Source: Bilabrum cf. latius
Taxonomy: Eukaryota
DNA length: 64,000 nucleotides
Reading direction: 5' to 3'
Assembly (NCBI GenBank): GCA_965178125.1
Contig: OZ237754.1
Coordinates: forward strand, 558,001-622,000
Shown here: positions 684 through 64,000 of the stretch, piece after piece
How positions within the stretch are numbered: position 1 is the first letter of the stretch
How the letters are laid out: each line of letters starts with the position of its first letter
The notes under the pieces: generated by a model
What the model was told of the DNA's origin: nothing
The model's database searches: none
Seen by the model: the letters and a program-made list of their open reading frames with translations, nothing else
Made by a program: the position numbers and the translations under genes

Positions 684-3600
684 ATGGCATCAGTTATCCT
701 GTATCTTGGCCCATCAGACGGTATTGCTTTAGCATATTCATCCAAAGGTTTGTATTCCGGCCTTACTAGCCCAAAACTAGATGCTGTTTGGGTCCTCAGC
801 ACCGCTGTGGCGATGCGAGAATTGCCAATGCTTGGCATCACAGTCCCTCAGCCGGCAAATCCGTTGAAGGATAAATCATTGGATGAATATGTTGGTGTGG
901 CAGCTGGCATGCACTCATTATGCTGTGTGGATGCCTGCCTTGCTTTTCCATGCGTTTCGCTTGCTGCCGTTCCACAAGCTCCCCCAATGATCAATCAAGT
1001 TTCAGGCGTGGTAGGATACTCACTTGATAGACTTCACCATATCATGGATACACCTGTCAAGCTCCAAGACTCGAGCGAAACCATAGAGCCATCCAGTCTC
1101 CAGTCTGACCAATCCAGATACTATTCGTAGTACGATGTCACGCTGGCGGCAACCGGGATGATGGTGGCTGCTTAGTAGTTCTTTGAAGACGTCACTGAAA
1201 CAGACGACCCGCTGAAGGAGCTAGCTGCTGCATGCTTGCGGGAGCGTGCACGGGCAGGCAGCGCACAGGATGAGGACGAGGACGACATGCAGGCACAGCC
1301 AGCAGCCTCGGCAATACTCCGTCTCCCAGACGACGCCAGGTCCATAGTTTTCTCTAGCGATGAAGAGGCAAACGAGCGCGTGACAAGCGGGGTAGTTGCA
1401 TACTTGGATGGGTTCAAGCCAAACCTTCGCGACCGTGGCCAGACCGACCACTCAATGCTGGGCAGATACTCTGACAGCCTCGCCGACGCCGTCGGCAGCT
1501 CGCTTGCAACTCAAGACTTTGCCATGAGCATCAATTTAGAGGGCGACTCTGCAATTGGTCGCGCAAGGGTACCAGGTGGCAGGAATCGCGCGGGCCAGCC
1601 TGCAGGGGTCCCAGTTGCTAGAGAGGGGTCAACTCCAAGTAAGAACATGAAGAAACTGAACGTGCCCCACGTTACCAAGTCCACTACTGCAAGCGTGGGG
1701 CGCGTTCAGCGTCATAGCTCGCACTTCCCAGCTGGTACTAGCTTGACAGACATATGTCTTGTGGCCGATCAACCGCTCGAGGAGCACAGAAATGGCGCGA
1801 AGGTATCTCCTGCTGCATCCCGGAGTTCGCACTCGACCGCAAGTGCAGTCGAACTTGGCCGAGGTGCCGCCAGCACAGCAATAGAGGAGAGATGGCAGTA
1901 TCGGCGGGTTTCGTCTGCCATGCACACAATGCGATGGACGAGGATGGCCATTCGGATGCAAAGCGTCAAGAAGGTCTTATTGTTCCGTCTTGCGGAGTTT
2001 AGCCAGAAACGGTCGTCTGCCATGGAGCCCACGCCTCTTTTTAGGAACCCATGCTTGATCGAGTGCCCAAGCATGTGCTGCATGTGCTGCAAGGACTGCC
2101 CATCGGCCGATGTGCAGTGCATGTGTATTGGGGATTTGTGTCGAGTCACGGTACCGACTATCCTTTGGCTGGTGCTGGCGCTCCATGTTGTGTTAGCGCT
2201 ACTGCCGCTGTCGTGCGTGCAGGCAGGTTCTCGGCACTTTGCTGCAATGTAGGGTAACAAGAGCATTGAGGCTGCATTCGAGCAGAATGCGACTTTGGCA
2301 GCGGCTTCACTGCGGGAGTCCCTGGATTGGTGCGGCGTGGACGCTGGTGCGATTGATTGGCAGGTTGACCTGGACGACTCAATGGGCCTCCATGCTGCAG
2401 CTGAGCGTCTGGCCGGGCATCGTCTGTGGCCGGCAGCTAGTGGAGGGCTGGTATTAATCGTCATGTTCTACTTGTCACTGATTGCAACGTCTTGCTTCCT
2501 TGCTCGCGGGCAAGGTTCCGCATATGACGACGAATGGATGGACCAGAAAGACTACTGCTGTCTTGTGTACATCGTAGGATACAGGCCGCTAATGTTTGTG
2601 TCAATGATGATTCATGGAGAGCATACAGCTACGTTACTCTCGGCGGAGTCTGCATGCATTGCTTTGTTGTTCCACCTGTTTGCCGCATTTGGCCTGATGG
2701 CAAGCGTCACGTGGGACTCTTTTCTGTCTGGGGACATCGATGTCTCGCCTGTTCACGACAACGGGGGCTTGCCAGGATACTTGCCAGGATACTCGCTCAG
2801 TGAGTTGCAGCAGACAAGAGACACAGGTGCGGTTGTCATTGCCGCGGGTGCGTTGCTGCTGGTCGGTGCAACCTGTCTTTGCGCTTGCCAAGCCGTATTG
2901 GCAGTTTGCTGCGCAATGAAGTAGGAGAGAACGATGCTGCCCCTTATACCATGTATCGGCTGCAACACGGCTGCATCTAGTGCGATCGTTGGAACTATTG
3001 TTGCGGTGATTGCGATTGGCCACTGCATGATTACGGTTTAGGCAGCGGATTCGTTTGGTGAAGCCTTGCACAGCTGCATGATCAGATTCGTTTATGCAGC
3101 TGCTGTGATTGCTGTTGCAATGCAATCTGTAAAGATCTGCAGCAGGATCTGGGGCGTGCTCCTTTGGAGCCTGGCTGAAGACTTGGAGTACGTATATGAC
3201 GAATTGCTGCCGACTACTCGGATAGTTGGGTACGGGATCCTGTTGCCTTGCATGTCCGAGAAGAGTGCCCCCGAGGTGTCACTGCTGGTCTACCACAGCG
3301 TCTTGGTGGTTCCATTTGCGCTGATAGCTGCAGCAGCAAGCCAATCATAGGGTACGGACTTTTTGCTGGGTGCGAATCGACCGATGTCCTGGTCACTTGT
3401 GGCTGTGCTGTGCAGCCTTGCCGCAGTGCGAGTCTTCCTTGGCACCCCGCAGCTCTGGCGCCTTGTTCTGTGGCGGTTGCGTTATTGGATGGGTATCGGA
3501 CAGGATGCAAGCTGGTACTAGCGATAGCTTTTGGCGATGGAGCGATGTCGGGCATCGATTGCCGTGGCCATGGCATGGGTGGCGGCGACGGACAGAGGGG

Positions 3601-4280
3601 CAGGGCAATCTCAGCCAGTGCATATGCACGATCGAGTGCTTGCACTACTAAGCCGGCCCATTCGAAAGCGCGTGCTGGACACTTTGTGGCCGCAGGACAG
3701 AGAGGACGTGGGCGTGGAACCGTCGCATATTTCGCTGGATGAATGTGTGCAGAAGCACGAGCAATGGGTGCGTCACCGCGACTATAGGCAGCCACGCGAG
3801 CAATCAGAGCCGCCGCCCGAGCTGCAGCTAATATCCCGAGATGCTATCCACGATACGCTGCGCGACCAAGCGTCTGGCGTGTACACGCGTTGCCGCCAGC
3901 GCCTGGCAGCTTTGATTGGAGGAGAGCACCACCTGTTTCTGTTCTTCGAGGCGTTGCTAAATGCGATCTAGGCTAAGCTTGGTGCAGAGACGACGAGAGG
4001 AGGCAAGCTGACGCGCGAGGTGGACTGGTTGCGAGGTCAGCACGATGCTGCCGGTCCTGGGGTTGGCAAGTAGAGATTTGCTGCAGTTGAAAGCACTTGC
4101 AGTGACACCGACTGTAGGGGCATGCCTGCAGCGGTTGCTATGAGTGCTGCTGGCCCGGGAGGCTCTCCCTCTGAAGCACTTGATTCTGTTGCTGTGGGGT
4201 AGTTGGATTACGGCAGCTCGGAGCTTCTTTCGACCTACGGGGCTGCCATGCTCGCTCTCTTAGCCGAACGCTATCGCTGA
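684..4280 (+). CDS. Hypothetical Cys-rich multi-pass membrane protein, ~1198 aa with TAG=Gln; 5' end uncertain
   Basis: ORF-track pieces 684, 1236, 2295, 3066, 3531 are all in one frame, separated only by TAG (12 in total); first TGA at 4278-4280; many hydrophobic helices; frame is open upstream to 423. Confidence 0.75.
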
Positions 4281-4613
4281 GCTGGGTCAATGCGCGTCCG
4301 AAGCGGTCTGCATACGTACTGGCAGCGAGTTGTGGGTGGGATTCGGAGTCCAAAATTGGGGTTGCCCTAGTGGTCTATGGCGTGCCGTCAGGGCGGCTGT
4401 AGGGTACCGGAGGCAACCCATAACTTGTTTCGTTGACGGTACCTCCAGTCTTGGTTCGTTGATTTTGTGGGGGCTGTGACCAGTGGTGGTCACTGCCAGT
4501 CAGCCATGGCAGTGGCATGGGCGGAAAGCTGCGGCATGCCATCTTTGAGAGCAATCTAGCCTTGGATCGTACTTATAAACATGTACAGCAAAGCAATAAT
4601 TCTGGTTCGGGTC

Positions 4614-7132: not shown

Positions 7133-10100
7133 ATGCAACATATTGCGGATGCCGCTCCATTCCTGTTTCCAGAAGAGCCCACCGACCGAGATCCTCAGAT
7201 TGCACACGTTGCCCGCCTGGATCCCAGCTACGTTACGACGGTGCTAGCACCGATTCGCTGGAACTGGTCGTGTCGTTGCATTACTTGCTGTCCTGGCTTC
7301 TGGTTTCCTATGTGGTCATGGTGTGAGCCAGTCATTGCCGAGAAAGATTCCAGTTGCGCTTCTCCAGAGTGCTGTTGCGATCCTTTCAAGAACAAGGCAT
7401 TCTGTGGCCTAGACTGCCCAGTGACGCGGGGACTCGGTCTGCTCTTAGTGTTTGCGTACCTTGTTGCTTCACCGAGCAATATTGAAAGGATCGGCGGTGC
7501 GTTGAGCGTGGAGGTGACTTGTAATGCAACAAATGCCGTGGATTTCGGTGGCTTGGACTCCATGGACGGGACGGGGAACGGCACGGCCGCTGCTTCAAGC
7601 GCAAATGTGGACACGATTTCTTGGGATGACTGGTATGGCCCAGTTGTTTTGCTCGGTGGCCTGTTTCTTGGGCTTGGCGTCCAACAGTTCGCAACCAGCG
7701 ATCGGGTGGAGGACCGCGTGGTTCAGAATGCCATATACACGGCTTGGTAGAATGACCATAGAGAGCGATGCGGTGCAAGCTGTCCTGGACCTGTGAGGCA
7801 CTTGCTGTTTTGGTTCTGCGCGAAGCCTGGCCATGTTCCATCGTGCTGTTGCTGCAGCTGCTACGGGACGTGGTGCAACTCTGCCACGCCGCTGTATTGC
7901 CACTGCTCTGTGGGTGCATGCTTTCGAGTCGTGTGGTGCTAGACGAGGCATAACAGGGACTCTCCAGACCCATCGTGCAACAATGCATGCGGGATGTGCC
8001 CAGCCTGCCAGCAGTACTGCCAGTGCACGGGTACCCCTGCTGAGCATTTCCAACGCTGCTGCGATGACTCATTTAAGGCATGCTGCGGTTGCTGCCTACC
8101 ATACCAAGATCCAGAGGACGTCACGGTTCCAGCGAACGATGCATGCCCGCGCTGCTGTGGATGCGGAGTGGAAGCAGGCTAGGCTCCGCAAGGCAACGGT
8201 ATGGAGGAGGTGCTCGTGCCAGCCATTCCGGGCGATGACTAGGGAGACCGATTGCCTGCCCGCAATTCAGGCAACAGCAGGGATGAGCCTGGTAGTCGTG
8301 CTGGTGCTAGTCAGGCTCAGCAGATCTTGGAGAAGGATGAGGTCGTGTCAGCCATTGGGAATGGATCAGTGGCAGAGGCAGGGTCAGAGGCATGGACAGC
8401 GGCACGGACAGAGGCACAGGCAAGGGCAGGGGCAGGGGCAGCGGCAGCGGCAGCGGCAGGGGCAGGGTCAGAGGCATGGGCAGCGGCAGAGGAACAGGCA
8501 GAGGCTGTGGCAAGGGCAGGGCCAGGGGTGGGGGCAGGGGCAGAGGCAGGGGCAGGGGCAGTGGCAGGTCGCAGCTCAGGCGATGGGCCACGTATAAGCA
8601 CAGGGACATAGGCCTAGTCTCTTCGGCAGCAACCTGACATGGCTACCCAGACGAGCGACGGCTCGGGGCTCAGCCCCGAGCGTAATGTACGTGTCTGCAT
8701 CGGGTCGCAGGGCAGTGAAGCAAATGGCGATTCTCTCACTACAGAGGACAGCCACGACGCAGACCAAATTGCTGCAGAAAAGCAGCTTCTGAATTCCCCT
8801 GATGGAGACGCTAGCCCTTACTTCGCCGTTGAGCAGGTGCTTCAACATGCTTCCATTGCTACTTCCGGGGCAGGACAACCGACTGAGGGGTACGCATCTG
8901 CTGCCCATGCAGACACAGGAGATGCCCATGGAGCACCGGCAGCTCGCGGCACGCCAGTGGCCATCAGTCCCCCATCTGGCCAGGGGCGGCAACCAGCTGA
9001 AGTACCAGCAGACACAGGAGATGCCCATGGAGCACCGGCAGCTCGCGGCACGCCAGTGGCCATCAGTCCCCCATCTGGCCAGGGGCGGCAACCAGCTGAA
9101 GTACCAGCAGACACAGGAGATGCCCATGGAGCACCGGCAGCTCGCGGCACGCCAGTGGCCATCAGTCCCCCATCTGGCCAGGGGCGGCAACCAGCTGAAG
9201 TACCAGCAGACACAGGAGATGCCCATGGAGCACCGGCAGCTTGGGACTTGGCAATGGCCGTCAGACCCCTTTCTAGCGTCAGCACGGAGAGCCTGCCTAG
9301 AAATGAGACGGACACAAGGCAGTAGCAGGTTCGTCCTGACGATTTTCCACCACCTGACCCCCAGTCTGGTCATCGCCCAACTAGCGGACGGCCCCGGCGA
9401 ATCTTTGCTCCTGGATCAGCTGAAGGCAGGCGGGAGGCTGACACAACTGGTTTTGCGCCAGTCGTAGGCCCTGCTGGTCAGGATCCACAGATCTTCGGTG
9501 CATTTGCACGGCGGGAAATCCGTCAAGGCCTTGATGGCGACGAAAGTGAAGGTGAAGAAAGTGAAGGCGACGCAGGTGAAGGCGATGAAGATGAGGGTGG
9601 CATTGTGGCGTGTCAGTGTCGTTCGCCGCAACAGTGCTGTCACTGCTGCTAGAAAGTCTGCGTCACGGAGCGACGCAGATTCAAGCATGTCAGGTTCACA
9701 TTTGCGCAACTCTTCTGCACCTGGACTGCAGCACTTCCCGGTGCTATCTTCCCTGCACTGCCGGCGCAGCCACTTGCTGTTCTTGGTGCTTTCAACTTGC
9801 TTTTCGGCGCAGCTCTGCTCATTCAGGCGTACTCTTACGGTGTCAATAGTCTTTCCAGCGGATGGGTGCTATCGTACACGAGCTTGTACATCGGCATGCA
9901 GTTTATGACTGCGCCCCTGTAGCATTCGCGCCTGACTCTGTTTATCAGCAAGGTGTGGGGCTCAGAGGTGCCGAGTGGCACGGTGACAGTGGCGCCAATC
10001 GAAGGCCGGCCCTCCGCGAGGGACTGGCCGCCTACTCCCTCCGACAGGCGAGACAGTGATGAGATTTCAACCGGCGCAGTGGCACCCGTTCCTGCTGCCA

Positions 10101-10423
10101 CTCCAACTGTCCGACAGGGAACTTTGGCTGCGATGCAAGCTGAAAGTCATACTGCTGCGACTTTAGAACAGATGCCAGAGGAAACAGTCTTTCGAAGCTT
10201 CAGAAATATAGAGGCAAGATTAGCAGAGGAAATACGATTCATGCACCGGGTACGGGATCAGGATCTGCAGAACTTTGCGCGGTTGACCTAGCGTAATCTG
10301 GACGTGATTTGTTATGCGCTGGACGCAGCGCGAGGCGCTGTTGGTGAAGCAATCGAAGGCGACGGGGACGACAGCGAAGAGCATGATCATGAAGAGAGTG
10401 GGAGTGATGCTGGCGAGGGATAA
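7133..10423 (+). CDS. Hypothetical Cys-rich membrane protein with internal repeats, ~1096 aa with TAG=Gln; ends in TAA; upstream exons possible
   Basis: Pieces 7133, 7994, 8252, 8639, 9953 share one frame joined by 10 TAGs; TM helices near both ends; acidic C-tail then TAA 10421-10423. Confidence 0.7.
8370..8570 (+). repeat. Low-complexity GCAGGG/GCAGCG hexamer repeat encoding an Ala/Gly/Glu tract
   Basis: Degenerate hexamer runs read AGAGAAAAAAAGAGSEAW... in the gene frame. Confidence 0.8.
8909..9241 (+). repeat. Coding tandem repeat, 99-bp unit, ~3.4 near-identical copies
   Basis: ADTGDAHGAPAARGTPVAISPPSGQGRQPAEVP units start at 8909, 9008, 9107, and a partial unit at 9206. Confidence 0.95.
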
Positions 10424-10821: not shown

Positions 10822-11769
10822 ATGCCTCGATTTGGCTCACCACCGGCATCACCGACAGGAGGCCAGCCCGATTTGACGCCAAAGGGCTCCCCTCCTCTAT
10901 CTTCAGTCCTGCCGCAGGAACATGCCCCGGAACGGGTCCTTCCTTAGGACCATGGACCTACAGTTGCAGAATCTAAAGGGAGAAAACGAGGACTGCGAAA
11001 GCGGAGGGTTGCGCGCAAGCATGACAGGGGCAAACGGTCGAAAGGCGAAGTCGATCAGCAGGTGCTTGGGCCAAGCCCGCCATCCAGTGCGACTGGGGGA
11101 CCGATAGCCGCATTTGTTGGGTCATAGCTTACTCCTACTGATGGCAATCGTGAGGATGCAGGCAGCATGCACTTCCTTGTGGTGCAGTCGATCGGTCTTC
11201 CCACGGGCAATGGAACGACTCGAGCAGTCACGCCAGCACTCGCTGCTCGCGATGACAGCCCAGAATCTGTCGCATTGAGCCAGGCCTCCTCTACCCGTAG
11301 GGGCAGCCCGAGCACCAGTAGCCCCCGAGCTGGACCAGCCTCGCCGGAGGAGAGCCCAAGGACGTGGTGCTTGGTCGTGGACGATGCAGCCACCAACAGG
11401 GATTTTCTTGCGGGTTTCCTGGCGCGCCGAGGCCTCACCGTGAGCCAGGCAGAGAACGGCAAACTGGCTGTACAGGCGTGTCGGCAGCGAGCGCAGGAGC
11501 TGGATGCATTGTGCGATGGTTCTTCAACTGCGTTCCTTGGCCTGATCACGATGGACAGGTCGATGACAGTAATGGACGGTGTGGAGGCAACCCGCGCGAT
11601 CCGGTCCGAGTTTGAGAATCGTTTCGTGATAGTCGGGATTACAGGAGATGCGCTTGGAGACGACTTGCAGTCGTTCAAGGAGGCGGGGCTAGACGCAGTG
11701 CTGGGGAAGCCTGTGGCTGGGAAGCAGGTGCTGAGAACGCTACGTGAGCTTCGGGCAGGCTCGTTTTGA
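10822..11769 (+). CDS. Response regulator receiver-domain protein (~315 aa, 2 in-frame TAG)
   Basis: REC motifs LVVDD, ITMDRSMTVMDG (phospho-Asp), VGITG, LGKP; frame extends through TAG 11125 and 10945 to ATG 10822; ends TGA-TGA; basic stretch RKRGLRKRRVARK. Confidence 0.85.
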
Positions 11770-12403
11770 TGAGCGCGACTGCAGGCGATACTGCTTTGAT
11801 CCGGGATGTGACTGATGCCATCCCATTTATTTATGAGCACTGTGGTGCATTGGCGCACTCACCCCTGCGACCCCGCAAAACGCGAGGATGAAGATTATTG
11901 CGTAGCCAACCGTCACAATATTACAGATCAAGTATACTGCAGCGCAATCTCTTTTGAAATGGACGCTCCACCTGGAACTCTCTTCAAAATGCATAAAGTC
12001 GACGTGTCGGACCAAGGGTGAGAGACTACTATTCATTACAGCTCGAGAAAGCGTATCACAAGAATCGGGTCGATCGTGTATTTGTGGAGGTATTCGTTGC
12101 ATTGACGCACGCAGCTTACCGTATGACTACGAGTGCCAGCCAATATGGTTTCTGTACTTCGATGCCCCGTCTGGCTGCGTGCGCTCTGCCGGATTTCGTC
12201 GATCTGGGGGGCCCGCAGCAGCGTCGTCCATACTGCTCGGCACGGACTCTTTGGCATTCAGGGCATCCAAAGGCTCGCTTGGTAGCGACTGGTCAATCTT
12301 GTTCAATATTTGCAATATTTGCAGGATCGAAAGGTCCGCATCTAATCGGTGCTGCTTAGAGGTGCTTCTTGCTCCGCATTCAGCGGAGCGTCCAGGCAAG
12401 TTT

Positions 12404-15400
12404 ATGGCACAAGATCGGCCATCCTGGGCCCAGCTGTGCTTTAACGAGCTCGCTAAGTCAGGAAATGCGCTGGCAGCGGCGATTGGCGATGAAGCTGAAG
12501 CCGCAATCAGCGCTTTGCGCCATGCGCCCGCGCACAGGAGGCATGGCTCGTTCGCAGGCGACGACGAGCACGAGCACGAGGGAATCGAGGACAGCAGAGA
12601 GAGCGATGGCGCGCAAGGCCATAGTGGTAGCAGTTCATCTAGCGTGGCATCCGATGTGGCAAGGTTCCTTCCCAGTTTTGATGACAAGTCGTAGCTGCCG
12701 ACGTCGGCTCTATTTCCATTTGCTCTGCACTTTGCTGCCAGCGAACACGCAGATGCGTTCGTTTCGGCTATTCTGGCTATGCGACCTTCTGTGCAGCTTG
12801 CTAGTGAGAGCGTGTGCCCCTTGGGCGTGACTCGAACCCTGTTCCGAGCGATCGGACGGCTGGACTCTTCAGTGGAAGAGGCCTCGTTTGCCGGCATCCA
12901 GCACTGCTCGCTCGTCCTAGACACCGTGCATCGCTGCATGGAGGTATGGCGACCCGCTGAAGACGCAGCGCAAGAAGCAGCCGCGCGAAACTGGGCCAGG
13001 GAGGGGCTGGCAGAGGGCAGGGAACCGGCGGGCGCGGCCGCCGGGGCCGGGGCCGGCACAGCCGCTATTGCAGCCGACGGTGCTGGAGGTGGCTTCGTGG
13101 GAGAGGGCGGCATCCCTGCGGGTGAGAACAGGGGGGGCGACTGGTCTGGCATGGATGCTGCCAATGACGAGAGCATGCAGCCGTACCTTCTGCCCTATGG
13201 CAACAAGGCGCTGGCCAGCAAGCAAGCGGCCATCGCCCAGCGCGCAAGCACGATGACCGGCGATAGTGCCGTCGAGGATCCAGAGGCCTTGGCGGCAGGA
13301 AGTTCCTCGCAAACGGATACCACGCCTCTATTTCGCTACACGGCAGAGCGTCGCATGATTCATCGGCGAAGCGGCGCGATACCTTCGGATGGGGGAAGCA
13401 GAGCGGGCGGGCTTTCAAAGGGAACTGGCCCGCGCAGCAAGCGCAAATCGATGTCTGGAGCGCTGGCCCGCGAGAAGGCTCCCCTGAGGGGCAGCATGGA
13501 GCTGCAGTTCATTCGCACGGATCCCATCCGACCGGCGTGGCACATCGTGTCTCTTCCGCATGGCAGTAGCGGCCGACCGTCGCTCAAGATCCGAACGAGT
13601 GCCCCGCCATCTGCCAAGGTCGAGCTGCTGTTCCCGTCTGCCACAGTTCGGGCGCAGTTCCTCGCTAGGCTGTACGCGTGCATGCAGACCACCATGCCTA
13701 GGCCCATCATTCCCAAGCCGGCGGATCCAGAGCACCTGCTGGTGCCACCTGACGAGCTCAAGAAGACGGCCAGCCTGTCGACCCCGGAGCTCTTGCGTGT
13801 CGTAGCAGAGGGCCAGAAGATCGCGGCGAGGCTCCAAGCGCTGGATGACAAGAGGAAAGGGCTTTCAAGCGATCGTAAACGCGGATCAATTCTCTCACTA
13901 AGACCGTCGCTCGACACCAACATCGCACCCATCATGCTGGAGGCACCGGGCCAGGCTCCCTGGAACAGCACAGGCGAAGACGCTGGTGCTCAGGGTCCCA
14001 GTGTTGCCGCTAGGACCAAGCCGCTAGGTCCTGACACAGGAAGCCCTATGCGGACAATCCAAGAGTCGAAAAGCGGGGAGAAATCCAGCGCTGGTGTGGG
14101 TGGCCCCACGTCACCGATGACGTCATCGTCGTCACTGCGCCGCCGTACGCGGCGAGGTATGTCTGGTGATACTGCCGGGACTATCCCATTGCCAGGCTGG
14201 GCTGCTGCGAAAATCGCCTATTTGAATGCCTCCTCCCAGCAGCCGTTCAATGAGCGCGTCAGGCAGTACTTCCAGTCGCGGAACGGGCTCGGCCGTCGGC
14301 AAGGCACTGCCTCAAAGGAGGTCGTGGGATCTGTTAGCGGCAGCTCCAAAGGATTCGACTCAAGAACCCTGGCGCCTGACGTCGCTAGCTCGCGGACGGA
14401 ACACCCGTGGACGCCCATGATGGACGGTGTGCCGGTAAGGCTGTCCGTCGTCAACTGGAAGGTGGGCTGGCAGGCACCACCTGACAACCCCGACGAGCTA
14501 GCAAGGGCGATGGCACCGGAGGCAGCTGACCTGTACGTAATTCATCTGCAGGACGTGGCCTTCACCCATCGCAAGGAATGGATCAAGGCAGTGGAGAGCT
14601 TGCTGAGCAGCTGCCCTGCGAGGCCCGATGCCAGCGTGGTACCTTGGGGACGCGCGCCTGAAGGGGTAGGAGGCGGGGGAGGAATCTATTCCCAATCTGC
14701 GATCGCAGACGCGATGCATTCCGGCACGAAGCAGACTGAAGCTGGTGCGACCTCTTCTACTAGCCACAGGGCTTCAGCGCGGGGTCGCGACAAGCGAGGA
14801 GATGACGCAGACGGAGCTTCAGTTCGGAGTGAAGGCTCCAAGGATGGCTTGATTAGTGGAGCAATGGGCGAAGACAGCAACAGTGACTGGAGCGGGGTAG
14901 AAGCAGACAAAGTGCCCCGAGGTCTGTTGCAGCTTGCTGTCGATGCGATACGAAACGACGACCCGACGCTCGCCAGAGCAACTCGTGAGGACGTCGCTGG
15001 TCTTCGCCTGCTTGCTCAGCTAGGCGACCGTGGAGCCGCGATGGTCCTCGATCGGCGAAGAGGCAAGAGTAGGCGAGGAAGCATGGCCAGTGTGTCTTCA
15101 GCTTCCCGCATGGAGGGTCGCAGTAGCCCTGGCCCCGGTAGGTCTCACGCAGCACCCGCATCCGGCACGGACAGCGCCGTTGTTGCGGGTGCCAGGGGAC
15201 TGAAGAATCTCCATGGTTCATTCGGCTCGCTCCTTGAGCTGTTAGAGGAGCAGGCAGGGACAACTGGGGACGATACGACTGGGGGCTAGGACTCTGAAAC
15301 CGCGGGCTGGTTCTTTGAGGACAAGAGCGGTGGGCAGGCGTTGCAATCGGGTAGGGCAGACGCTCGGAATGGGGCGTCTGCAACGGCGCTGATTGCCAGT

Positions 15401-54316: not shown

Positions 54317-55201
54317 TCAAGTCTCAAGGGCACTGCGCTTCTGCCGCCGGCCACGCCTACCAGACCCCCGAGACCCGGGCCCTGTCCTGGTGGGGCTGCG
54401 GGCCGCCGACCCAGGGGACGCTTCCGCTTCAGAAACCTGCGCTGACGCAACCTCGGGGCCCCGCCCGGCAGAAGCACCCGCCGGACCGGTAGACTCCGCT
54501 TCCTTAGCAGGCGCGCGATCACTCGCTGCAGACGACTCCTGCCCGCTGCGTGGCGCTTCAGGCGCTGATGGCTGTACCGGAGCGGCAAGAGCAGCCTGCT
54601 CTGCCTTCTCCCGAGCATCGGCCTGGGCCTTCTCTCGCGCTGCCGCCTCCTCTGCCTTGCGCCGGGCCTCTTGCTCCCGCTTGTCCTGCTCTGCCTTCTC
54701 CCGAGCATCGGCCTGGGCCTTCTCTCGCGCTGCCGCCTCCTCTGCCTTGCGCCGGGCCTCTTGCTCCCGCTTGTCCTGCTCTGCCTTCTCCCGAGCATCA
54801 GCCTGGGCCTTCTCTCGCGCTGCCGCCTCCTCTGCCTTGCGCCGGGCCTCTTGCTCCCGCTTGTCCTGCTCTGCCTTCTCCCGAGCATCAGCCTGGGCCT
54901 TCTCTCGCGCTGCCGCCTCCTCTGCCTTGCGCCGGGCCTCTTGCTCCCGCTTGTCCTGGTCTGCCTTCTCCCGAGCATCGGCCTGGGCCTTCTCCCGCGC
55001 TGCCGCCTCCTCTGCCTTGCGCCGGGCCTCTTGCTCCCGCTTGTCCTGCTCTGCCTTCTCCCGAGCATCGGCCTGGGCCTTCTCCCGCGCTGCCGCCTGC
55101 TCTGCCTTGCGCCGGGCCTCTTGCTACCGCTTATCCTTTCTCTTCTTGGCCTCAGCCTCAGCTGCTTCTTCCGCTGCTTTCTCCTGCACCTTTTTCAGAT
55201 C

Positions 55202-55243
<42 letters not shown>

Positions 55244-56744
55244 GGCTGCAGGTGCCTGCGCAATGATTCCATCTTCGTCCTCGTCCTCTTCCTCGTCCTC
55301 TTCAACGGCGGGTACATTGCCTTGAGATTGCTATCGGCTGGATGCAGAAGCATCAGATGCGATATCCTTCCCACCCCTACCGTTACCTCGCTCCTTATTC
55401 CAGGCCTCGCTCTCACCCTCACCCTCACCCTTGCCCTCGCCGTCTTGCTTGACTACCTCCGCGGGGCTGCCGTCCTCCAGGGCGCGCACCACGCCGCATG
55501 CTCGGTTCGCCGCAGCTGCTGACTCCGGGCCCTTCCAGTGCTTCATGAAGGTTCCTTTGTCGGCCACCCAAGCGCGACCGCCGTAGTAGTCCCTCGGCTG
55601 CAGGGCCGAAATGATCTGATCCCTAGAAAGGTCCGACAACGCGGATACAACCGCTCGCTTGAACAGAGATTCGCCCTCGTCCCCCTTGGGGAAGTTGCTC
55701 CTGCCGACCTGCTTCCTCACTTCCCCAATCTCGATGGGCTTGTGCACGGTGATAACGACCTCTTCGTGTCCTATCTCGGGCACCCCCCTGAGGGGCCAGT
55801 TGGCTCGCATCCCAGACAGGGTGATAGGCAGGACTGCAGTGTCTGTGTCGTTGGCAGCGATGAAGGCGCCGGGCTTGAAGGGACCAAGCGGTCCATCCAG
55901 CAGGTTTATGTAACGAGTTCCCTCGGGAAAGAATAGAAAAGACAGTTTCCCGTCAGTGATGTACTTCTTCGAGTCCTCGAGCGCCTTGTGACGCGCTGCC
56001 TTGCCCTTGTCGTCAGACCGAGTTCGCTCGATGGCAACATGACGCGCAAAGTAGAAAAGCTGCCCCATGATGGGATAGTACAAGATTTCCTGCTTGATCA
56101 TCGCCCGGAAATTGATGACTGGAAGCAAAGAGAGAACAAAGGCGTCCAGTGTGCTCTGGTGGTTGAGTGCAATGACCACCGGCCGGTCCTTCGGGATGTT
56201 CTCGACGCCCTCCAGGCGGTACTTCAGAAACGGAAAGATTGCCATTCGAGTTAATACGCAATTCGTACTGCGATACGGAACACTTGCCAAGCGCAGCGCG
56301 GAACATTCTTGATCAGGCTAGCTGAGCAGCCCCGGCAAAATGAGGTGCCGGCGGAATACCTCCTGTAAGAGGGAACATAGTTGATGCACGGACTGGCAAG
56401 ACAACCATATATATTAAGGTGCTCACTACTATGCAAGGTTGCCGTACGGGTCAACAAAGATGGAGATGGGCCACGCAATGATGTACAGTAGTACAGCAAT
56501 GGTGCCGAACAGCATCTGCAGGCCTAAGAGCCCGAACACCCGTGCACTGCGGTACGCACAGCTCAAGAAATTGAGTACTCAAATGGAACCAGGCGCTGCA
56601 TAGATGATTCGTGAAAGTGCGGTTAAACCAAGCTATGTGGGATTGGGTCAGAGCCACGGCCGACAAAACTTACCGCAGCAACCAGCTACCTGGGTTGGAC
56701 TTCTTGGGTACATAAACGCCGTCATCACCCCGTCGTTTTCCCAT
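54317..56744 (-). CDS. 1-acyl-sn-glycerol-3-phosphate acyltransferase (PlsC/LPAAT) with long charged repeat tail; N-terminal exons tentative
   Basis: NHQSTLD and FFPEGTR motifs, PFKPGAF, VLPITL; read-through of TAG 55331 and 55124 to TGA 54317; putative introns 56596-56673, 56516-56555, 56268-56426. Confidence 0.85.
54597..55136 (-). repeat. 90-bp coding tandem repeat x6 (EQDKREQEARRKAEEAAAREKAQADAREKA)
   Basis: Units at 54601, 54691, 54781, 54871, 54961, 55051 are near-identical. Confidence 0.95.
55202..55243 (-). repeat. (GCTCAG)n microsatellite encoding (AQ)n
   Basis: CCTGAG x6-7 on the + strand. Confidence 0.9.
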
Positions 56745-56971: not shown

Positions 56972-59900
56972 TCAGTACCCCGGTAGCCGCGCCGCCTGTG
57001 GACTTACCGACCGAGACAGGGCCTGAAGCCCTCGCATGTGACGAGTGTCCTGGCTCAACGGACGGGTGTCCGTCACGTACCTTGGTGACACGCCGAGCGA
57101 TGCCGCCACTCGCTGCACCGCCTCAGTCGCTCCTAGCCCCCCGGCACCAGGGTCAGCCCCTCTCCCGATGCCACGCCAAGAGGGAGCGCCGCCGCCGCCA
57201 AACAGCCCCGAGCCACTCTCAGCGGCTCCAAATCCACTCGTCACACCAGTACCCGCGTAGGCCCTGGTCGGCTGCTCGTAGCTCTGCCGAGAGTGGTACG
57301 AGCTGGACGAGCGGCCTGGGCTTGCGCGTATTTGCCTGCCGGCACCACCACCGTGCGATGCAGTTCGCGCGACCATGGCTGGTGCTGCCCACACGCCACC
57401 AGCCCCGACGGAACCAGACCGCGCCGAGCGCGAGGGTGAGGTGGTGCCACCGTGCAATGCACCCCCGAAGGAGCTTGACCGGTGGAGCCGCTGCTGCTGC
57501 CCCATCGACGGAGCAGGAGCAGGACGCAGCCCGCTGCTGCCGCTGGATTCACCCGCCGCACCCATCCTTACCGGGGCCCTGGACGGCGATTCCTGCGTCC
57601 CGGCCACGGAGCTCACGCTCCCCCGTCGCCTGCCGCCCCGCGTGTAGCCGGGCAGCTGCGACATGGACCGAGTGTGCTGCAGCTGCGCTGCGGCCTGGAC
57701 TTGGGACCTGGGCTGGTAGGAGTAAATGGAGCTGGGCTGCTGGTCTGTCTGCATGGGCGCCGTCGCAGTAGCAGCGGCAGCAGCGGCAGAGGGCGGGGTT
57801 TGATCCAGGACAGGCCCTGGGGCCCGGCGTCTGGCCAGTAGCTTTTCCTGGAAATGGGGAGTGCGCTGTGGCGCACCACCATGTGATGCACCCAGGCTCG
57901 CCTGCAAGCTTCCACCCAGCACATACGTCCTGGATCCACCTCTCGTACTTGATACTGACCTGCCAGATATCGATCTGCCAGATACGGATCCTGCATCTGC
58001 ACCCGCACCACTCGCCGTGCGACTCTGAAAGCCAGCCAACCCGAGTGCCCCACTACCCCTGCCTGATTGGACCGCAGGCCAGTCGTCTCCCCTGCCCCCG
58101 AGGTCTTCGCTCGTGGCGCGGCTGTCACCAAAGCGAGAAAACCGACCGACACTTGCAGACCTGCCTCCCAATGGACTGCCGCTGCCGCCGCCGCCGCCGC
58201 TAGCGATGGAAGCCCTCTCGGATGCCTCGCGATGGGCCCGACGAACCAGCTCCGGGTCATATCCAGCGCTTGCCCTGGTATTCGCACCCGTGTGTCGGGT
58301 TGGGGAGGGCGCACCCCGCCCATCCCTTCCTTCATCGGGAGACTGCAAGTCAACGCGCGAGCCAACATGCCTCGAACTGCCTTGCCTTGGCGAAGAGGCC
58401 GAACGCTGCGAAGGACCGATGCATGGCGCGTTGTTCCCTGTCGAGACGGCTTCATTTGCCCATGTCGGGCGAGATCGTGGGGCAACATCGCGCCCCCGTG
58501 CCGACGATACAGCCGTCGGGCTTGGAGCAAACCCGGCACGGTCACGACCTGGATTGCCTGAGGGCTGCTAGCCGGCCGCACCATTTGCCGCTGCTGCACG
58601 GAGTAGATCAAGCAGGGCGGGCGGCACGCCCGCGGGATCAGCACTCTTCAAGCTTCCTGGCGTCGCACTGTCTTGACCTCGGACTGCATGCGGGGTGCCA
58701 GCCCCGCTTTGCGCCTAGGCAGTGCTCGCCGGCTCCCCCGGCTGGCCACCTGCTCTGGTAGAGATGACCGAGTGCAGCAGCCGATCCATGCGGTCCACGG
58801 CGTCTTTGAATCCCCGGAGGTACTCCTGTTGCTGAGGCGCGGGCGGTTGGCCCGACTACGACTGCTCCTGCTGCTCATGCTGCGCTATGGTGTGTGGTGC
58901 AGCAGCAGGCTACCCGTCTGGCGACGGAGAAGCAACGTCTGCTTGATGGCAAGAACCGTTCGTAGAGCCAGCGCTGCTGCTAGTGGGTTGTTGCGAGGCG
59001 ACAGTGCGGGATACAGTCGGGCCGGTGCTATTGCTTGCAGCAGCACTTGCAGCAGCACTTGCAGCAGCACTTGCTCGCGGGCTAACTAGGCCGGTGACCG
59101 CCTGCACCCAAGCCGAAATGGCGTGGTCGGCCTCGCTTGCAGTCGCTCCGGAGGCAAAGCTGGCGGGGACATAACCCAGCGGCAATTTGCGGGGCTTCCC
59201 AGGGATAAGGGCAACGGAAGGCGGTCTGGTTGGGTCGTAGAGGCACCACGCCAGCATCCAGCCATCAGGTGCCTTGCTCTGGTCCGGGCATCGGATGATC
59301 ACCGTGCCCTTGGAAGCACTCAGCTCGCCCTGGCCCTGCGCCTCGAAGGGATACCGCATTGCCATGCGCTGCCCTTTTGGCAGGCGATCCACCAGTGCCC
59401 TCGGGTCGGCTCGCACCACAGGGGCGACCTCATCTGCAGTGATGGGTGCCAGCCGCGGGCTGCTTTTCTTCGGTTGCGGCTTGATTGAAGACACAGTTGC
59501 TGTAGAGCCCTGCGCAGGCGTGGCAGCGGTGACAGCTGCTCGATCCGCGGTTGTCTTTCCGTGCTCGGAGTTGCCTTCGTCCTTGTCTGCGTGAGTTCCA
59601 CCTGCAGAAGCCCACGAGCCAGGCGTGGTATGCACTCCAGTCGGGCCCACCGCACTGGCTGTTGTTGCCGCAGCAAGTATCCGACTCGAGCGCGCATCCG
59701 TGCCGATGTGCTCTTCACCTGATGTACTCGAGGACAAAGACGATGATGCCTCGCCGCTGGCAGTCTCACGAGACTCCGCGGCGGCTCCTTGCTCTTGTCC
59801 GGGGGTACCTGGCCTTGAAGACACCTCGATGTCATCAGGCTGCACCTCCTCCCGTCTACTGCCAGCTCCATTCGGGACGTTGAGTTCGGTGCCAGCTGGA

Positions 59901-61735
59901 GCTGCCTGCTGCGCGCTAGTCCCCTCGCTGTTCTTGGAGCCACGACCGTCGTGGGGCTGTGAGGCACGGGTGGCTGATTCACCTGATGCCAGGCCATGAG
60001 TCGAACCAACCGGTTCTCGTGCACCCGGGTTTACTGCCTGTTCCTCACTAGCAACTGAAACTCCTAAGCGAGTCTTTTGATGCTCTATGGCAGTCCAGGC
60101 GTCCCCATCAAATGCCTGCTCGCCCACACTTGCAGCCGCCGTGGGGTCGCCTACGATGACCTGGTCCAAGCCAAACACCTCCCCATCGCTGCCCCTTTCT
60201 GTCAGCTAGGGGCGCGCAGGGGGGGGCGTTGGTTCCTCGCCGTTCGGAATATCAACAGACTTCGCTGGAGCTGCATCCGTCGAAGCAGCTGCATCCGTCG
60301 ATGCAGCTGCGGCTAAAGCAGCTGAATCTCCACTTGTGCCATTCGCTTCTTTGTACAAGTCGCTGGTCGCGCCAAGGGCTGCATCGATGGAAGCGTCCAC
60401 GCTAGCTGGCTCTGCACCGATGGGGTCTATAGTGCCTTTTCCAGTGTTGGATGCTGCGCCGGAAGCTCCTGCACCTGCACCTGCGCCAGCCCCAGCAATT
60501 GGCCTTGACCGGGGCCGGACCCTCCGAAGCAGCGGGCTCGTGGGCAACCTCTGCTTTCCAGCGGCTCGCAATGGCCGAAGATACGCCTGTGGTACGTACC
60601 CTTGAGTCACCTCTTGCCCTTCCAGCGTGGGTACCCGCAACACGAATGTCCATCCCTCGGGTTCGGCCGGCCGTGAGTCGATGAGGGAGAGCTTGGGGTT
60701 GGTGGACGGGAGCACCACGTCCCCTGACGCGACCGTGAGCTCGGTGGGATCCTCCGCTCTAAAGTCGTGCTGCACCACCATGGCGTCAGCGAACATTCGG
60801 CGAGGGTTCACCCGAAGTCCTTGCTCTCCTGCAGACGCCCCCGCCGTGTGCAACCCCCTGCTGGGCGAAGACCACTTGCCATGGGCCTGCCCCGCATCTG
60901 TATACTTTCTAGAGGGACTTGTTCTGCGACTTATCGAGTCTGAATACGAGTATGCGGACGATTGCGACGGCATGGGGCGAGCACTTGCCCCTGTGCGAGC
61001 ATCCCGTGCTGTGGCGTCCGGCTGCATGTGAAGCTCGTTCAGGAACGTGAGAGCTCGCTTTGGGCCAGCCAGTGCCAGCGAAGATGGACTACTCGGTGAT
61101 ACATATGAAGATGCGTCGCCTCGCGGCGTTGATGCCGCAAGGGACTGGAACAACCGTCTCCCATGGTGCTGACGATGCAAACGAGCAAGAGGTACCCGAG
61201 GGGACTGCAGCAAGCTTCCGGGCTCTGCTTCGTCTGCAAGGCTAGATGATCCTACTCCATTCACATGAACAACCTCAATGTCATTCGGCTGAACGCGAAA
61301 CGCGGCTACACCGGAGAGGTACGTGCTTCCATGCTTGGCTGGGCTCGACCTCTCAGTAGGCACCCCGTCCCGCCCAACTTCGACCTCATACACTACATCT
61401 CTCGTTGTGCAAAAGTAAGCTAGAAAGTCTGGCCATGTTACGCTTCGGACTGGCGAAGAACCGTGCGAGGGGTGTGCACGCTGGTAGACATCAGTCATGA
61501 CTTCTTCCACCACGGCACGCATTGCCTCCTGTCCGGCGCCAAGTTTATCCTGTAGCCCCAGCATGTTGCCGATCCAAGAATGTTTTCGAAGTGCCTTGAT
61601 TAATTCTCGTTTATCGATTGCACCGTCCTGCTTACCATCGATTGTTGAGAAAGCCTTCCGTACCTAGCGAAGGTCGACCTGTAGACGAGGAATGCCTATG
61701 CTGGCAGGAGTTCGTGGAGAAGTTGGGAGCGACAT
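56972..61735 (-). CDS. EF-hand + two SH3 domain scaffold protein (~1587 aa, 6 in-frame TAG)
   Basis: EF-hand VRKAFSTIDGKQDGAIDKRELIKAL; SH3 HDFRAEDPTELTV..GD..EGW..GYVPQAYL and YPFEAQGQGELS..KG..DGW..GYVPASF; single frame; ends TGA; start tentative. Confidence 0.8.
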
Positions 61736-62131
61736 TCGTTGCAATGGTGAGCACAAAATTCCCGCGGTACCTCCTCTTGGGCAACACTTCCCGGGCAGCA
61801 CAGCTACTCTGCCGACTCGCCGATTTCGCGCTGCAGCACCGGTTGCAACCACTGATCCGCACAGCGACCTGCGCAGCAGCATGACACGCGGCATAACAAT
61901 GAGACCAGGCCACAAGAGTGGGCTCGATTGATCGATATGCTGGCATGCCCTACGGTCTTGCGTGTCTCGCCGCCTGCTGGCCAACTACATTGAAGCGATG
62001 TGGGCCCCTGTCATGCCACGCGGCACAGGGGGTGGGTGGCACACAGCGAGTCTGCATGCGTGGCCGTGTTGAGCAGATGAATACATGATGCGTAGCAAAC
62101 ACAGACTCAACAGGTATTAGCGCGTTTCAAA

Positions 62132-62974
62132 TCACAGCACGTTCCACTTGCCGGTGCGGCGGTATATGCCGAGCACCTTGTGCGCCTATCGCCTGATGGC
62201 CTTGTCCGAGTCGCGGTTGAACACCGACTCGAGCGTGTCAATCACTCTGCTCTCCAAGCGAGGAGGGGAACCGTCGCAGATGATGTGCAACACCCTGGAA
62301 CGAATGGACGAGTCGTCGTCCTCGGCCAGGTCGAACACAGCGTCCCAGAACTCGGGCACGTCAAGCTTCACCTGGCAGGGGCACATGAGGTCCAAGGCCT
62401 TGAGCCTCACCCGAGCATCCTTGCTCTTCGTCAGTGTGACGAGTGCGGACACGTCGCCGCACGACGTGGCCTCACCGATGGCATCCTTGGCCAGCCTGAA
62501 CTTGTCAGTGAGGCGCATGGAGGTGGCCGCCGGGTCGTCGGGGGCGAGCATGAGATCGGCCATCCGGTCGGCGGGTGTCATGGGCTCGGCGGCAGCCTCG
62601 AGCTTTGCCCTTCGCTTAGAGCGGACGGACTTGCCGCCACCCTTTGCCTCCTTACGCTTGGCTAGCCTGGCTCTGGCCTTGGCGCGAAGCATGGCCTTCT
62701 CTCTCCTGACCTCTGGCTTGGCGGTGGCGAGAGCCTCAGCGGCAGCCTACTTCTCCTCAGAGGCGGTAGGTGCCAACTTCAAAGATGCCATCACGGCAGC
62801 TTCCTTCAAAGAAGCATCATCAACCACAGAAATAGCCGGCGAGGCGTGAGGCGATCCACTCAAGTCAACAGAATCGATCAAAACCGTCCCATCAGTGTCT
62901 GCTATTCTGTCGTCCTCTTTCCTGCTAACGACAGACATACCAGAAATCACGGAAGAAGTGCAAGGGATCTCCAT
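62132..62974 (-). CDS. HEAT-repeat-like protein (~280 aa, 2 in-frame TAG)
   Basis: SKDARVRLKALDLMCPCQVK..DDDSSIRSRVLHIICDGSP..DSDKAIRR*AHKVLGIYRRTGKWNVL-TGA. Confidence 0.75.
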
Positions 62975-63451
62975 ATTGTTATGTGTTGGTTGAACGCCTG
63001 AACAAGCCTAGCCTTTCCTCCTACTGGTGCTTGTTTGTGATTTCCTATCGTTCCCGTCGTGCCGTGCGTCCCGCAAACCGGAACACCCGCGACGTTTTCC
63101 GGTTTTGTGGTTTCCGCGTTCCTGGTGGGCATCTGCGAAAAGCTCACCCATGCAGCCACTCATGGATGCACTAAACGTTACGGAGACACGAGTATGCCCT
63201 TGTGCAGTCACCGAAGGACAGATTGTCGGCACACGATGCAGTGTTCCTGATGCACCGCCCTTGCCGTTGGAACCTGCCTTAGCTACTGTCCAGCCGCCAA
63301 TACACCCATGATGTGTGCCAGGCGTACGTGGGCCAATCGGGTCTCAGCAAAGCCAGGACAACAATTGTAACGGGAAAAAGAAGCAATTTACTGCAAGCTA
63401 AAGGCTAAGGCGTGTCATGCTCAGTCAAACGAGCCGCGGTGCCCCTGTTCC

Positions 63452-64000
63452 TCAGGACCCCCCGCTCCCCCAATACATGCCCCCACCAACACCGCCGTCT
63501 CCTTCCCTCCCCCTCCCGACCGCCACATCGCCATAACTTTCCCTGCCACCCGCACCGGCATGTACCCTGGCCCCTGCCGAGTGCTAAATCGGACCCCCCG
63601 CCCCCGCCCCGCTAGAGGGCCCCCCCATGCCCCTGCCCACGCCCCTGCCCTCCTCCTCATCATCATACATGTGCCCCCCGTGCACACGCTCCCCCTCGTC
63701 CCCGTGCGGATCGTACGCGCCATCTCCCCCGTCACCGTATCCACCGTACTACCCATATTCATCACCGCCCACGCCCCCTGCACCGTCCCCATCAAACCGC
63801 TCGCCGTCACCTCCACCCCGCGCGGCATCGATCGCCCTCTGCCTTGCCAGGTCGGCATCCGCCTCCAACGCGCCCACGTCCATGGCCACCATCTCGTGAG
63901 TTGCCCTCCCCAGCCTGTACCCCTGGCCCCCGCGCCCGCGCCCGTGCCCGTGCCCGTGCATGCCCGCTTCGCTGTCGTCGTCCTCGCTGTCTCCGTTGAT
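63452..64000 (-). CDS. 3' part of a Gly/Asp-rich protein, truncated by window end
   Basis: Frame of ORF 63749-63961 continues through two TAG to TGA 63452. Confidence 0.55.

What the first reader, a model, noticed from the sequence alone, without database searches (positions are those of the whole stretch)
684..64000. Non-standard nuclear genetic code: UAG reassigned to a sense codon (Gln) in a GC-rich eukaryote
Seen: nearly every gene is split in the standard ORF track, but the pieces stay in one frame and are separated only by TAG (about 120 in-frame TAGs by manual count). About 20 genes terminate at TGA. Domains run straight across the TAGs. Known: UAG-only nuclear reassignment is rare (e.g. 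Iotanema spirale UAG=Gln, a rhizarian UAG=Leu, some phyllopharyngean ciliates). Most variant codes change UAA and UAG together and occur in AT-rich genomes. Inference: this GC-rich protist lineage may be an independent, undescribed origin, equivalent to translation table 15.
Basis: partly seen in the sequence, partly recalled or inferred. Interest (0 to 1): 0.97.

Follow-up and report, generated by a model that had tools for sequence, protein, structure and literature searches.

The report
Protist genome reads TAG as glutamine
This GC-rich single-celled eukaryote uses the stop codon TAG as an ordinary amino-acid codon, most likely glutamine, and ends nearly all its genes with TGA, a rare kind of genetic-code change outside ciliates.

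Summary
With TAG read as sense, the window (59% GC) resolves into about 20 long genes. These hold 116-124 in-frame TAGs in about 18,400-19,000 codons and no in-frame TGA or TAA. Of 19 curated genes, 18 end in TGA and 1 in TAA.

It is eukaryotic nuclear DNA. It encodes PX, SH3, SNARE and TPR/CLU domains. Contigs of two other public runs are spliced at five short GT..AG introns. Those spliced contigs carry the TAGs unchanged: 30 of 32 TAG codons in the laid stretch. This rules out editing, splicing-out and assembly error.

Glutamine is the best reading but is not proven.
- In YKT6, one TAG sits on the Q of the YQ(N/D)P motif in the 4 printed PDB alignments (human, rat, yeast).
- In a TPR repeat column, TAG occurs 3 times beside CAG 6 times.
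- Close relatives show Q, E and K once each at other TAG sites. Leu, Ser, Tyr and Trp fit poorly.

Relatives' protein fragments end exactly at this genome's TAG sites, so the code is probably shared across a clade.

No tRNA or eRF1 gene lies in the window. The lineage is unplaced, with a weak Cafeteria-like hint.

The parts
510..4280 (+). 1256-aa membrane-like ORF with 14 in-frame TAG; ends in TGA
   Evidence: Fragments of a relative (80-87% identity to this gene) show K at TAG 805 and E at TAG 844. They end exactly before TAG 947 and TAG 1154.
7133..10423 (+). 1096-aa ORF with 10 in-frame TAG. It is the only curated gene ending in TAA, and a TGA follows two codons later (10427-10429).
10822..11769 (+). 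315-aa response-regulator-domain gene with 2 TAG; ends in TGA
11888..26218 (+). 4776-aa ORF with two PX domains and 27 in-frame TAG. No TAA or TGA occurs in 4793 codons. Ends in TGA.
26282..28096 (+). 604-aa BNR_2 (sialidase-like repeat) gene with 4 TAG, one inside the domain match
28276..32808 (-). 1510-aa CLU/TPR gene with 12 TAG, six of them inside the 42-residue TPR repeats
28526..29719 (-). 126-bp TPR repeat array. Column 7 reads CAG x6, AAG x1 and TAG x3.
33145..34398 (-). 417-aa ORF with 1 TAG. Its 5' part is cut by two introns, 34155-34247 and 34335-34422.
34826..34995 (+). 170-nt GT..AG intron of the + strand gene that ends at 35755
   Evidence: joints in X5 and X7, none in X1.
36058..36153 (+). 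96-nt intron (GT..AG with the cut 2 places to the right) of the gene that ends at 36806
36929..39121 (+). 730-aa ORF with 3 TAG. One X5 contig piece (36992-39751) covers it without any difference.
39358..40368 (-). 336-aa membrane-like ORF with 2 TAG; ends in TGA
40417..45990 (-). GTPBP1-like GTPase with long low-complexity inserts. It has 8 TAG, but the first two may lie upstream of the true start.
46721..51166 (+). 1481-aa helical-repeat gene with 14 TAG. X5 contig 46633-50893 matches it without difference. Database fragments of this genome and of relatives break at its TAGs.
51320..51811 (-). Exon 2 of a highly expressed YKT6 SNARE gene. It ends in CCSIS followed by TGA.
51524..51526 (-). 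In-frame TAG that aligns with the Q of YQ(N/D)P in solved YKT6 proteins. It is kept in a spliced contig.
51813..51913 (-). 101-nt GT..AG intron of the YKT6 gene
54317..56404 (-). 695-aa acyltransferase gene with a 90-bp x6 repeat and 3 TAG. One TAG stands where sister repeats have GAG.
56972..62110 (-). 1712-aa SH3/EF-hand gene with 7 TAG; ends in TGA
62132..63232 (-). 366-aa HEAT-repeat gene with 3 TAG, one inside the HEAT_2 match

Best explanation
The window is nuclear DNA of a GC-rich, gene-dense, intron-poor protist. In its cytoplasmic translation UAG is an ordinary sense codon, most likely glutamine. UGA is the working stop codon and UAA a rare second one, which matches the NCBI table 15 pattern.

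Shown:
- TAG lies in frame in 18 of 19 genes.
- TAG is kept in spliced transcripts.
- TAG is conserved at the same sites in related organisms.

Inferred, not shown:
- Decoding is by a tRNA with anticodon CUA, expected to be a mutated tRNA-Gln.
- There is an eRF1 that no longer recognises UAG.
- Because single proteins carry up to 27 TAGs, read-through at each site must be close to complete. This is therefore a true reassignment and not leaky suppression.
For: Sense reading. There are 116-124 in-frame TAG and no in-frame TAA or TGA in about 18,400-19,000 codons. ORF lengths collapse only when TAG is taken as a stop. Pfam and PDB matches span TAGs.

Real DNA, unedited RNA. One X1 contig matches the whole 19.5-kb stretch with 0 differences. 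Runs X5 and X7 come from other studies. Their contigs are spliced at five GT..AG introns and are otherwise identical. The listed pieces cover 30 of 32 TAG codons, including the YKT6 TAG in a spliced contig.

Glutamine.
- The YKT6 TAG aligns with Q in the 4 printed PDB alignments, covering human, rat and yeast.
- TPR column 7 reads CAG x6, AAG x1, TAG x3.
- A relative has Q at TAG 54 of gene 46721.
- Q has the top summed BLOSUM62 score over 19 TAG sites: 30, against K 18 and E 17. With each repeat column counted once it is 19 against 14 and 13.

Shared code. Four of 4 C-termini of close-relative fragments fall exactly before our TAGs.

Stops. Eighteen genes end in TGA and 1 in TAA. The homology-defined end of YKT6 is a TGA.
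Against: - The amino acid rests on few informative columns.
- Close relatives show E at TAG 844 and K at TAG 805 of gene 510.
- The TAG in the 90-bp repeat stands where sister units have GAG.
- Without the TPR columns, Q, E and K score 14, 13 and 13.
- Mid-distance relatives show T, K, P, N, N, D, R, A and S at nine TAG columns. None is Q.
- No tRNA gene and no eRF1 gene is in the window, and no genome is held. The mechanism is therefore an inference.
- That X5 and X7 are RNA is inferred from their spliced contigs. The tool lists X7 as 'RNA?' and X5 as 'RNA? (probably DNA)'.
- There is no peptide evidence.
Confidence: 0.7

Rival explanations
1. TAG is a sense codon but encodes glutamate or lysine rather than glutamine. 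UAG=Glu is known in the ciliate PL0344, and UAR=Glu in Blastocrithidia.
For: - A close relative has E at TAG 844 and K at TAG 805.
- The TAG in the 90-bp repeat stands where sister units have GAG.
- Without the TPR columns, E, K and Q score 13, 13 and 14.
- From recall, not tested here: the position matching TPR column 7 is usually E in kinesin-light-chain-type TPRs.
Against: - The YKT6 TAG aligns with Q in the 4 printed PDB alignments.
- Inside this protein, TPR column 7 is CAG in 6 of the 7 repeats without TAG.
- A close relative has Q at TAG 54.
- Q scores highest in all three tallies.
Confidence: 0.2
2. TAG has a context-dependent dual meaning: sense inside genes and stop near some 3' ends, as in Condylostoma or Blastocrithidia.
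For: In four genes the last TAG lies only 17-43 codons before the TGA or TAA. A TAG stop followed by a chance open tail cannot be excluded there.
Against: - The HEAT_2 match runs across the TAG that lies 17 codons from the end of gene 62132-63232.
- TAGs are spread evenly along genes (KS p=0.24).
- Every gene has a TGA or TAA end.
- The homology-defined end of YKT6 is a TGA.
Confidence: 0.06
3. The in-frame TAGs are not translated. They would be assembly or sequencing errors, sites edited to CAG or spliced out of the mRNA, or marks of pseudogenes.
For: None was found. In principle a single assembly could carry systematic errors.
Against: - Contigs from four studies agree letter for letter.
- Spliced contigs keep the TAGs.
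- In the tables, the one other-letter row (C>T at 39011 in X7) and all six joints lie away from every TAG codon.
- The frames carry no TGA or TAA over thousands of codons.
- TAG sites are conserved in relatives.
Confidence: 0.01
4. The DNA is from a bacterium or phage that uses code 15, not from a eukaryote.
For: TAG=Gln is known in some phages (abstracts in the listing).
Against: - There are five GT..AG introns, removed in contigs of two runs.
- The domains are eukaryotic: PX, SH3, YKT6 SNARE, CLU and a GTPBP1-like GTPase.
- The window holds 1500-4800-aa low-complexity proteins.
Confidence: 0.005

Closest known systems
Iotanema spirale (Fornicata) nuclear code: UAG=Gln with UAA and UGA as stops (PMC5304391; passages read)
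   Same: Only UAG is reassigned. UAA stays out of coding frames. Gln is the assigned or favoured residue. UAG is not seen as a terminator.
   Different: - Iotanema ends genes mostly with UAA (104 UAA against 15 UGA). Here it is 18 TGA against 1 TAA.
- This genome is 59% GC.
- The one placeable protein groups with a stramenopile, not a metamonad (weak).
- The eRF1 change reported for Iotanema (T32G) could not be checked here.
Ciliates with UAG-only reassignment to Gln: Protocruzia tuzeti and two phyllopharyngean lineages (PMC11687900; passages read)
   Same: UAG alone is reassigned, to Gln, and in-frame UAG occurs in most genes.
   Different: - Those ciliates use UAA as the main stop and UGA least. 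Their GC content is 27-54%.
- Here TGA dominates and GC is 59%.
- No feature specific to ciliates was seen, and none was searched for.
Rhizarian exLh (UAG=Leu) and the green alga Scotinosphaera (UAG=Ser)
   Same: UAG is uncoupled from UAA in a nuclear genome outside the ciliates.
   Different: Leu and Ser fit the TAG columns poorly. The summed BLOSUM62 scores over the 19 TAG sites are L -40 and S +2, against Q +30. No L or S was seen at the TAG sites compared with close relatives.
NCBI translation table 15
   Same: The table is the same: TAG=Q, with TAA and TGA as stops.
   Different: According to PMC5304391, the table was first attached to Blepharisma in error. Membership here is by pattern only.

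Membership tests
UAG-only stop-to-sense nuclear code (table 15 pattern) | In-frame UAG occurs in the coding sequence of most genes | tested here: met
   Eighteen of 19 genes hold TAG, 116 TAG in 18,365 codons. Domain matches span TAGs.
UAG-only stop-to-sense nuclear code (table 15 pattern) | UAG is present in mature mRNA, neither edited nor spliced out | tested here: met
   Thirty of 32 TAG codons lie in the listed pieces of the runs with spliced contigs, X5 and X7; none of the differences or joints that tabulates falls on a TAG. These are contigs, not raw reads, so rare variants would not show.
UAG-only stop-to-sense nuclear code (table 15 pattern) | UAA is kept as a stop and not reassigned together with UAG | tested here: met
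   No TAA occurs in frame inside any main gene. TAAs lie only upstream of starts or at a gene end. One gene ends in TAA.
UAG-only stop-to-sense nuclear code (table 15 pattern) | UGA is kept as a stop | tested here: met
   Eighteen of 19 genes end in TGA. YKT6 ends at its homology-defined C-terminus with a TGA.
UAG-only stop-to-sense nuclear code (table 15 pattern) | UAG is never used as a terminator | tested here: inconclusive
   No gene needs a TAG end. In four genes, however, the last TAG lies 17-43 codons from the stop.
UAG=Gln | UAG sits at conserved Gln columns of protein alignments | tested here: inconclusive
   For Gln: the YKT6 column is Q in the 4 printed alignments, TPR column 7 is mostly CAG, and a relative has Q at one site. 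Against: relatives show E and K at two other sites. There are too few conserved columns in one window.
UAG=Gln | A tRNA-Gln gene with anticodon CUA | not testable with these tools
   No tRNA gene is in the window and no genome is held.
UAG=Gln | eRF1 with changes in its stop-codon recognition motifs | not testable with these tools
   No eRF1 gene was found among the window's ORFs (Pfam). No genome is held.
UAR=Gln (table 6 pattern: ciliates, diplomonads, some green algae, aphelids) | Both UAA and UAG occur in frame | tested here: not met
   There are 0 in-frame TAA against 115 TAG in 18,202 codons. CAA occurs 204 times, so A-ending codons are not avoided.
UAG=Leu (rhizarian exLh type) | UAG sits at conserved Leu columns | tested here: not met
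   The aligned residues are polar (Q, E, K, R, N, S, T, D). L scores -40, against Q +30.

The most novel reading that the evidence does not exclude
This is an undescribed, independently evolved UAG-to-Gln nuclear code in a GC-rich protist clade outside the ciliates, possibly related to bicosoecid stramenopiles. It would be shared by at least two or three related species already present in public data. UGA has become almost the only stop codon. To my recollection it would be the first nuclear code change in stramenopiles. It would also be a counter-example to the idea that stop-codon capture goes with AT-rich genomes.
Probability: 0.4. Interest if true: 0.85.

Novelty: new member of a known kind. 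Interest (0 to 1): 0.72.

Why it matters
UAG and UAA almost always change meaning together. Only a handful of nuclear lineages are reported to have uncoupled them.

This case differs from those. It lies in a GC-rich genome where TAG should not be rare, and TGA serves as nearly the sole stop. It therefore tests the 'codon capture under AT pressure' explanation. It also offers a system for asking how eRF1 can lose UAG while keeping UAA and UGA.

There is a practical consequence. Gene callers using the standard code cut this organism's proteins into pieces. The database already holds such pieces ending at TAG sites. Its proteome, and that of its relatives, is therefore misannotated wherever it has been deposited.

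Tried and rejected
Tools that gave nothing
- The whole genome is not held.
- Supplementary files of papers were not asked for.
- There are no tRNA genes and no Rfam matches in the window.
- A word-based homologue search of the CLU-like region found nothing.
I left that step out, so no Atlas taxa were obtained.
- Metagenome scan: alignment A1 was too divergent. A2 matched 116 pattern stretches but none was confirmed. The YKT6 query did not complete. Earlier tries found the machine busy.
- No RNA holder is listed for the stretch. That X5 and X7 are RNA is inferred only from their spliced contigs.

Tests that did not separate Q from E or K
- A neighbour-residue likelihood test and adjacency counts.
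- Composition of the +-5-residue windows around TAG.
- The base following TAG.

Other dead ends
- The ORF around exon 2 of a putative roadblock-like gene gave no PDB hit. Its three exon pieces gave no significant Pfam hit.
- The contig joint 37695 to 50074, seen in X1, X5 and X7, has only 22 letters on each side with 36 other letters between. I take it for another locus, not a rearrangement.
- The GTPBP1-like tree is a quick tree with long branches and narrow sampling (fungi, one green alga, Cafeteria, unnamed proteins). It is a hint, not a placement.


Full report
**What the sequence shows**

The window is 59.1% GC. Under the standard code the longest stop-to-stop frame is 1130 aa. With TAG read through it is 4793 aa. 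Making TAA sense changes nothing. Making TGA sense leaves the longest frame at 1130 aa.

A greedy set of non-overlapping frames bounded only by TAA and TGA gives 21 ORFs. They cover 57,127 of 64,000 bases and hold 19,055 codons with 124 in-frame TAG. Eighteen end in TGA, two in TAA, and one runs off the window.

In a curated set of 19 genes I count 116 TAG in 18,365 codons. Eighteen of the 19 genes hold TAG. The ends are 18 TGA and 1 TAA.

The frame 11837-26218 has 27 TAG, 0 TAA and 0 TGA in 4793 codons. Its two other frames carry 35/11/64 and 56/19/114 TAG/TAA/TGA. TAGs are spread evenly along the genes (KS p=0.24).

**It is eukaryotic nuclear DNA**

Pfam finds these domains:
- PX (twice), SH3 and EF-hand;
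- a CLU domain followed by a TPR_10/TPR_12 array;
- a GTPBP1-like GTPase and an acyltransferase;
- BNR_2, a HEAT repeat and a response-regulator domain.

Several matches run across TAGs:
- the TPR array, with six TAGs inside it;
- HEAT_2, residues 263-354, with TAG at 349;
- BNR_2, residues 187-538, with TAG at 193.

**The TAGs are real and stay in the RNA**

Nine listed public runs from four studies hold the stretch 40417-50416 or part of it. I laid four runs on 33000-52500.
- One contig of X1 matches the whole stretch with no difference. It may be the source assembly.
- X5 and X7 come from other studies and are filed under other organism labels.
- Their contigs skip five short segments with GT..AG ends on the strand of the gene: 34155-34247, 34335-34422, 34826-34995, 36058-36153 and 51813-51913.
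- X1 shows none of these joints. X5's depth varies from 2.5 to 321 between bins, while X1 is flat at about 12.5.

I take X5 and X7 to be transcript assemblies. The tool itself only guesses their kind ('RNA?', and for X5 'RNA? (probably DNA)').

The listed pieces of X5 and X7 cover 30 of the 32 in-frame TAG codons of the stretch. The tables list one other letter (C>T at 39011 in X7, not at a TAG), no inserted or deleted letters, and six joints, none at a TAG. The YKT6 TAG lies in a contig that is itself spliced.

Editing to CAG, splicing-out and assembly error are therefore excluded as the main form. Because these are contigs, rare variants would not show.

**TAA and TGA**

No TAA lies in frame inside any main gene. 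When only TGA is taken as a stop, the added TAAs all lie upstream of the starts or at the gene end 10421. The same codons include 204 CAA and 49 TTA, so A-ending codons are not avoided. TAA is not a sense codon here.

One gene ends in TAA, with a TGA two codons on. YKT6 ends at its homology-defined C-terminus (CCSIS) with a TGA.

**Which amino acid**

The best single datum came from the introns. The most highly expressed locus of the laid stretch is a two-exon YKT6 SNARE gene on the minus strand. I sent exon 2 by reference with TAG as X. It matches solved YKT6 proteins (E 2.5e-22). The TAG aligns with the Q of YQNP in the three printed human and rat alignments and with the Q of YQDP in yeast. 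That is Q in all four alignments printed.

The second datum is internal. In the ten 42-residue TPR repeats of gene 28276-32808:
- column 7 reads CAG x6, AAG x1 and TAG x3;
- column 9 reads CGG x4, ATG x2, TAG x2, CTG and TTG;
- column 37 reads TAT x5, TAG, CAT, TTT, TGT and ACG.

Third, relatives. The full HMMER search with gene 46721 gave 9 hits. Three are this genome's own fragments, each bounded by TAGs. The others are 76-85% and 39-50% identical.
- At TAG 54 a close relative has Q.
- Mid-distance relatives show T, K, P, N, N, D, R, A and S at nine TAG columns, and gaps at three.
- For gene 510, relatives (about 80% identity over the aligned 337 residues) have K at TAG 805 and E at TAG 844.
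- One TAG in the 90-bp repeat of gene 54317 stands where sister units read E.

Summed BLOSUM62 scores over the 19 sites put Q first: 30, against K 18, E 17 and R 17. With each repeat column counted once the scores are Q 19, K 14 and E 13. Without the TPR sites they are Q 14, E 13 and K 13. L scores -40, W -49 and Y -25.

So Leu, Tyr and Trp are out, and Ser fits poorly (+2 against Q +30). Gln is favoured, mainly by YKT6 and the TPR column. Glu or Lys is not excluded. Context statistics did not help.

**The code is shared**

All four C-termini of close-relative fragments fall immediately before one of our TAGs: TAG 76 and TAG 378 of gene 46721, and TAG 947 and TAG 1154 of gene 510. The relatives therefore carry a standard-code stop at the same sites. 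The mid-distance fragments are also much shorter than their contigs. This is only suggestive.

**Who it is**

Neither rRNA nor any other Rfam family is in the window.

The GTPBP1-like protein shares its unusual long-insert architecture with a Cafeteria roenbergensis protein and with two unnamed metagenome proteins. It groups with them in a quick tree (SH-aLRT 95). That tree has long branches and narrow sampling. This is a weak hint of a bicosoecid-like stramenopile and nothing more.

**Mechanism**

Proteins with up to 27 TAGs need near-complete decoding at each site. By analogy with the cases discussed in PMC5304391 (passages read), I infer a tRNA with anticodon CUA and an eRF1 with weakened UAG recognition. 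Neither gene is in the window.

**Comparison with what is known**

The passages read list these UAG-only nuclear changes:
- rhizarian exLh (Leu);
- Iotanema spirale (Gln; ends 104 UAA and 15 UGA);
- Scotinosphaera (Ser);
- Protocruzia and two phyllopharyngean lineages (Gln), with Leu also reported in phyllopharyngeans;
- a ciliate with UAA=Lys and UAG=Glu.

The ciliates use UAA most and UGA least. The present case has the same table as Iotanema, but it has 59% GC and 18 TGA ends against 1 TAA end.

Five full-text searches listed no paper describing such an organism. The library is incomplete, so this is not proof that none exists.

**Verdict**

This is a genuine stop-to-sense reassignment of TAG. 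It is most likely Gln (about 0.7). It is a new member of a known kind of code change. It becomes a notable one if the lineage proves to be an independent origin outside the ciliates.

Noticed in passing
window 52656-53200, minus strand: This looks like a small three-exon gene. The exon junctions read GTGAGT...CAG and GTAAGT...CAG. From recall, its pieces resemble a dynein light chain of the roadblock/LC7 type. The middle exon carries two in-frame TAGs. Neither Pfam nor PDB confirmed the pieces.
   Followed up: partly
window 222-223 of gene 510-4280; 1344-1345 of gene 11888-26218; 74-75 of ORF 34826-35755; 1653-1654 of gene 40417-45990 (residue numbers): There are four TAG-TAG doublets where 0.73 are expected from the TAG frequency (Poisson P=0.007). 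This is unexplained. It may reflect CAG-CAG runs.
   Followed up: partly
window 8909-9241 and 54595-55137: Two in-frame coding tandem repeats: a perfect 99-bp x3.4 repeat in gene 7133-10423, and a 98%-identical 90-bp x6 repeat in the acyltransferase gene.
   Followed up: no
window 10421-10429: The only TAA terminator is followed two codons later by an in-frame TGA, a tandem stop.
   Followed up: no
window 37674-37695 and 50074-50097: Contigs in X1, X5 and X7 match 22 letters at each of these two places, with the same 36 other letters between them. This is probably a third locus sharing short motifs.
   Followed up: no
window 39011: There is a C>T difference in one X7 contig of depth 4.4. It is probably a strain difference.
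   Followed up: no
window 40417-50416: Near-identical DNA is held by runs filed under four different coded organism labels from four studies. The organism may live with, or contaminate, other organisms' samples. I did not trace this.
   Followed up: no
window 4614-5444, minus strand: This is the only curated gene without any TAG. From recall, its middle resembles the C-terminal half of an ArsC or low-molecular-weight phosphatase. Pfam gave no match.
   Followed up: no
window 31229-33091 (+) and other long antisense frames: Long open frames lie opposite real genes, for example a 620-aa frame opposite the TPR gene. This is the usual by-product of high GC and not evidence of genes.
   Followed up: no
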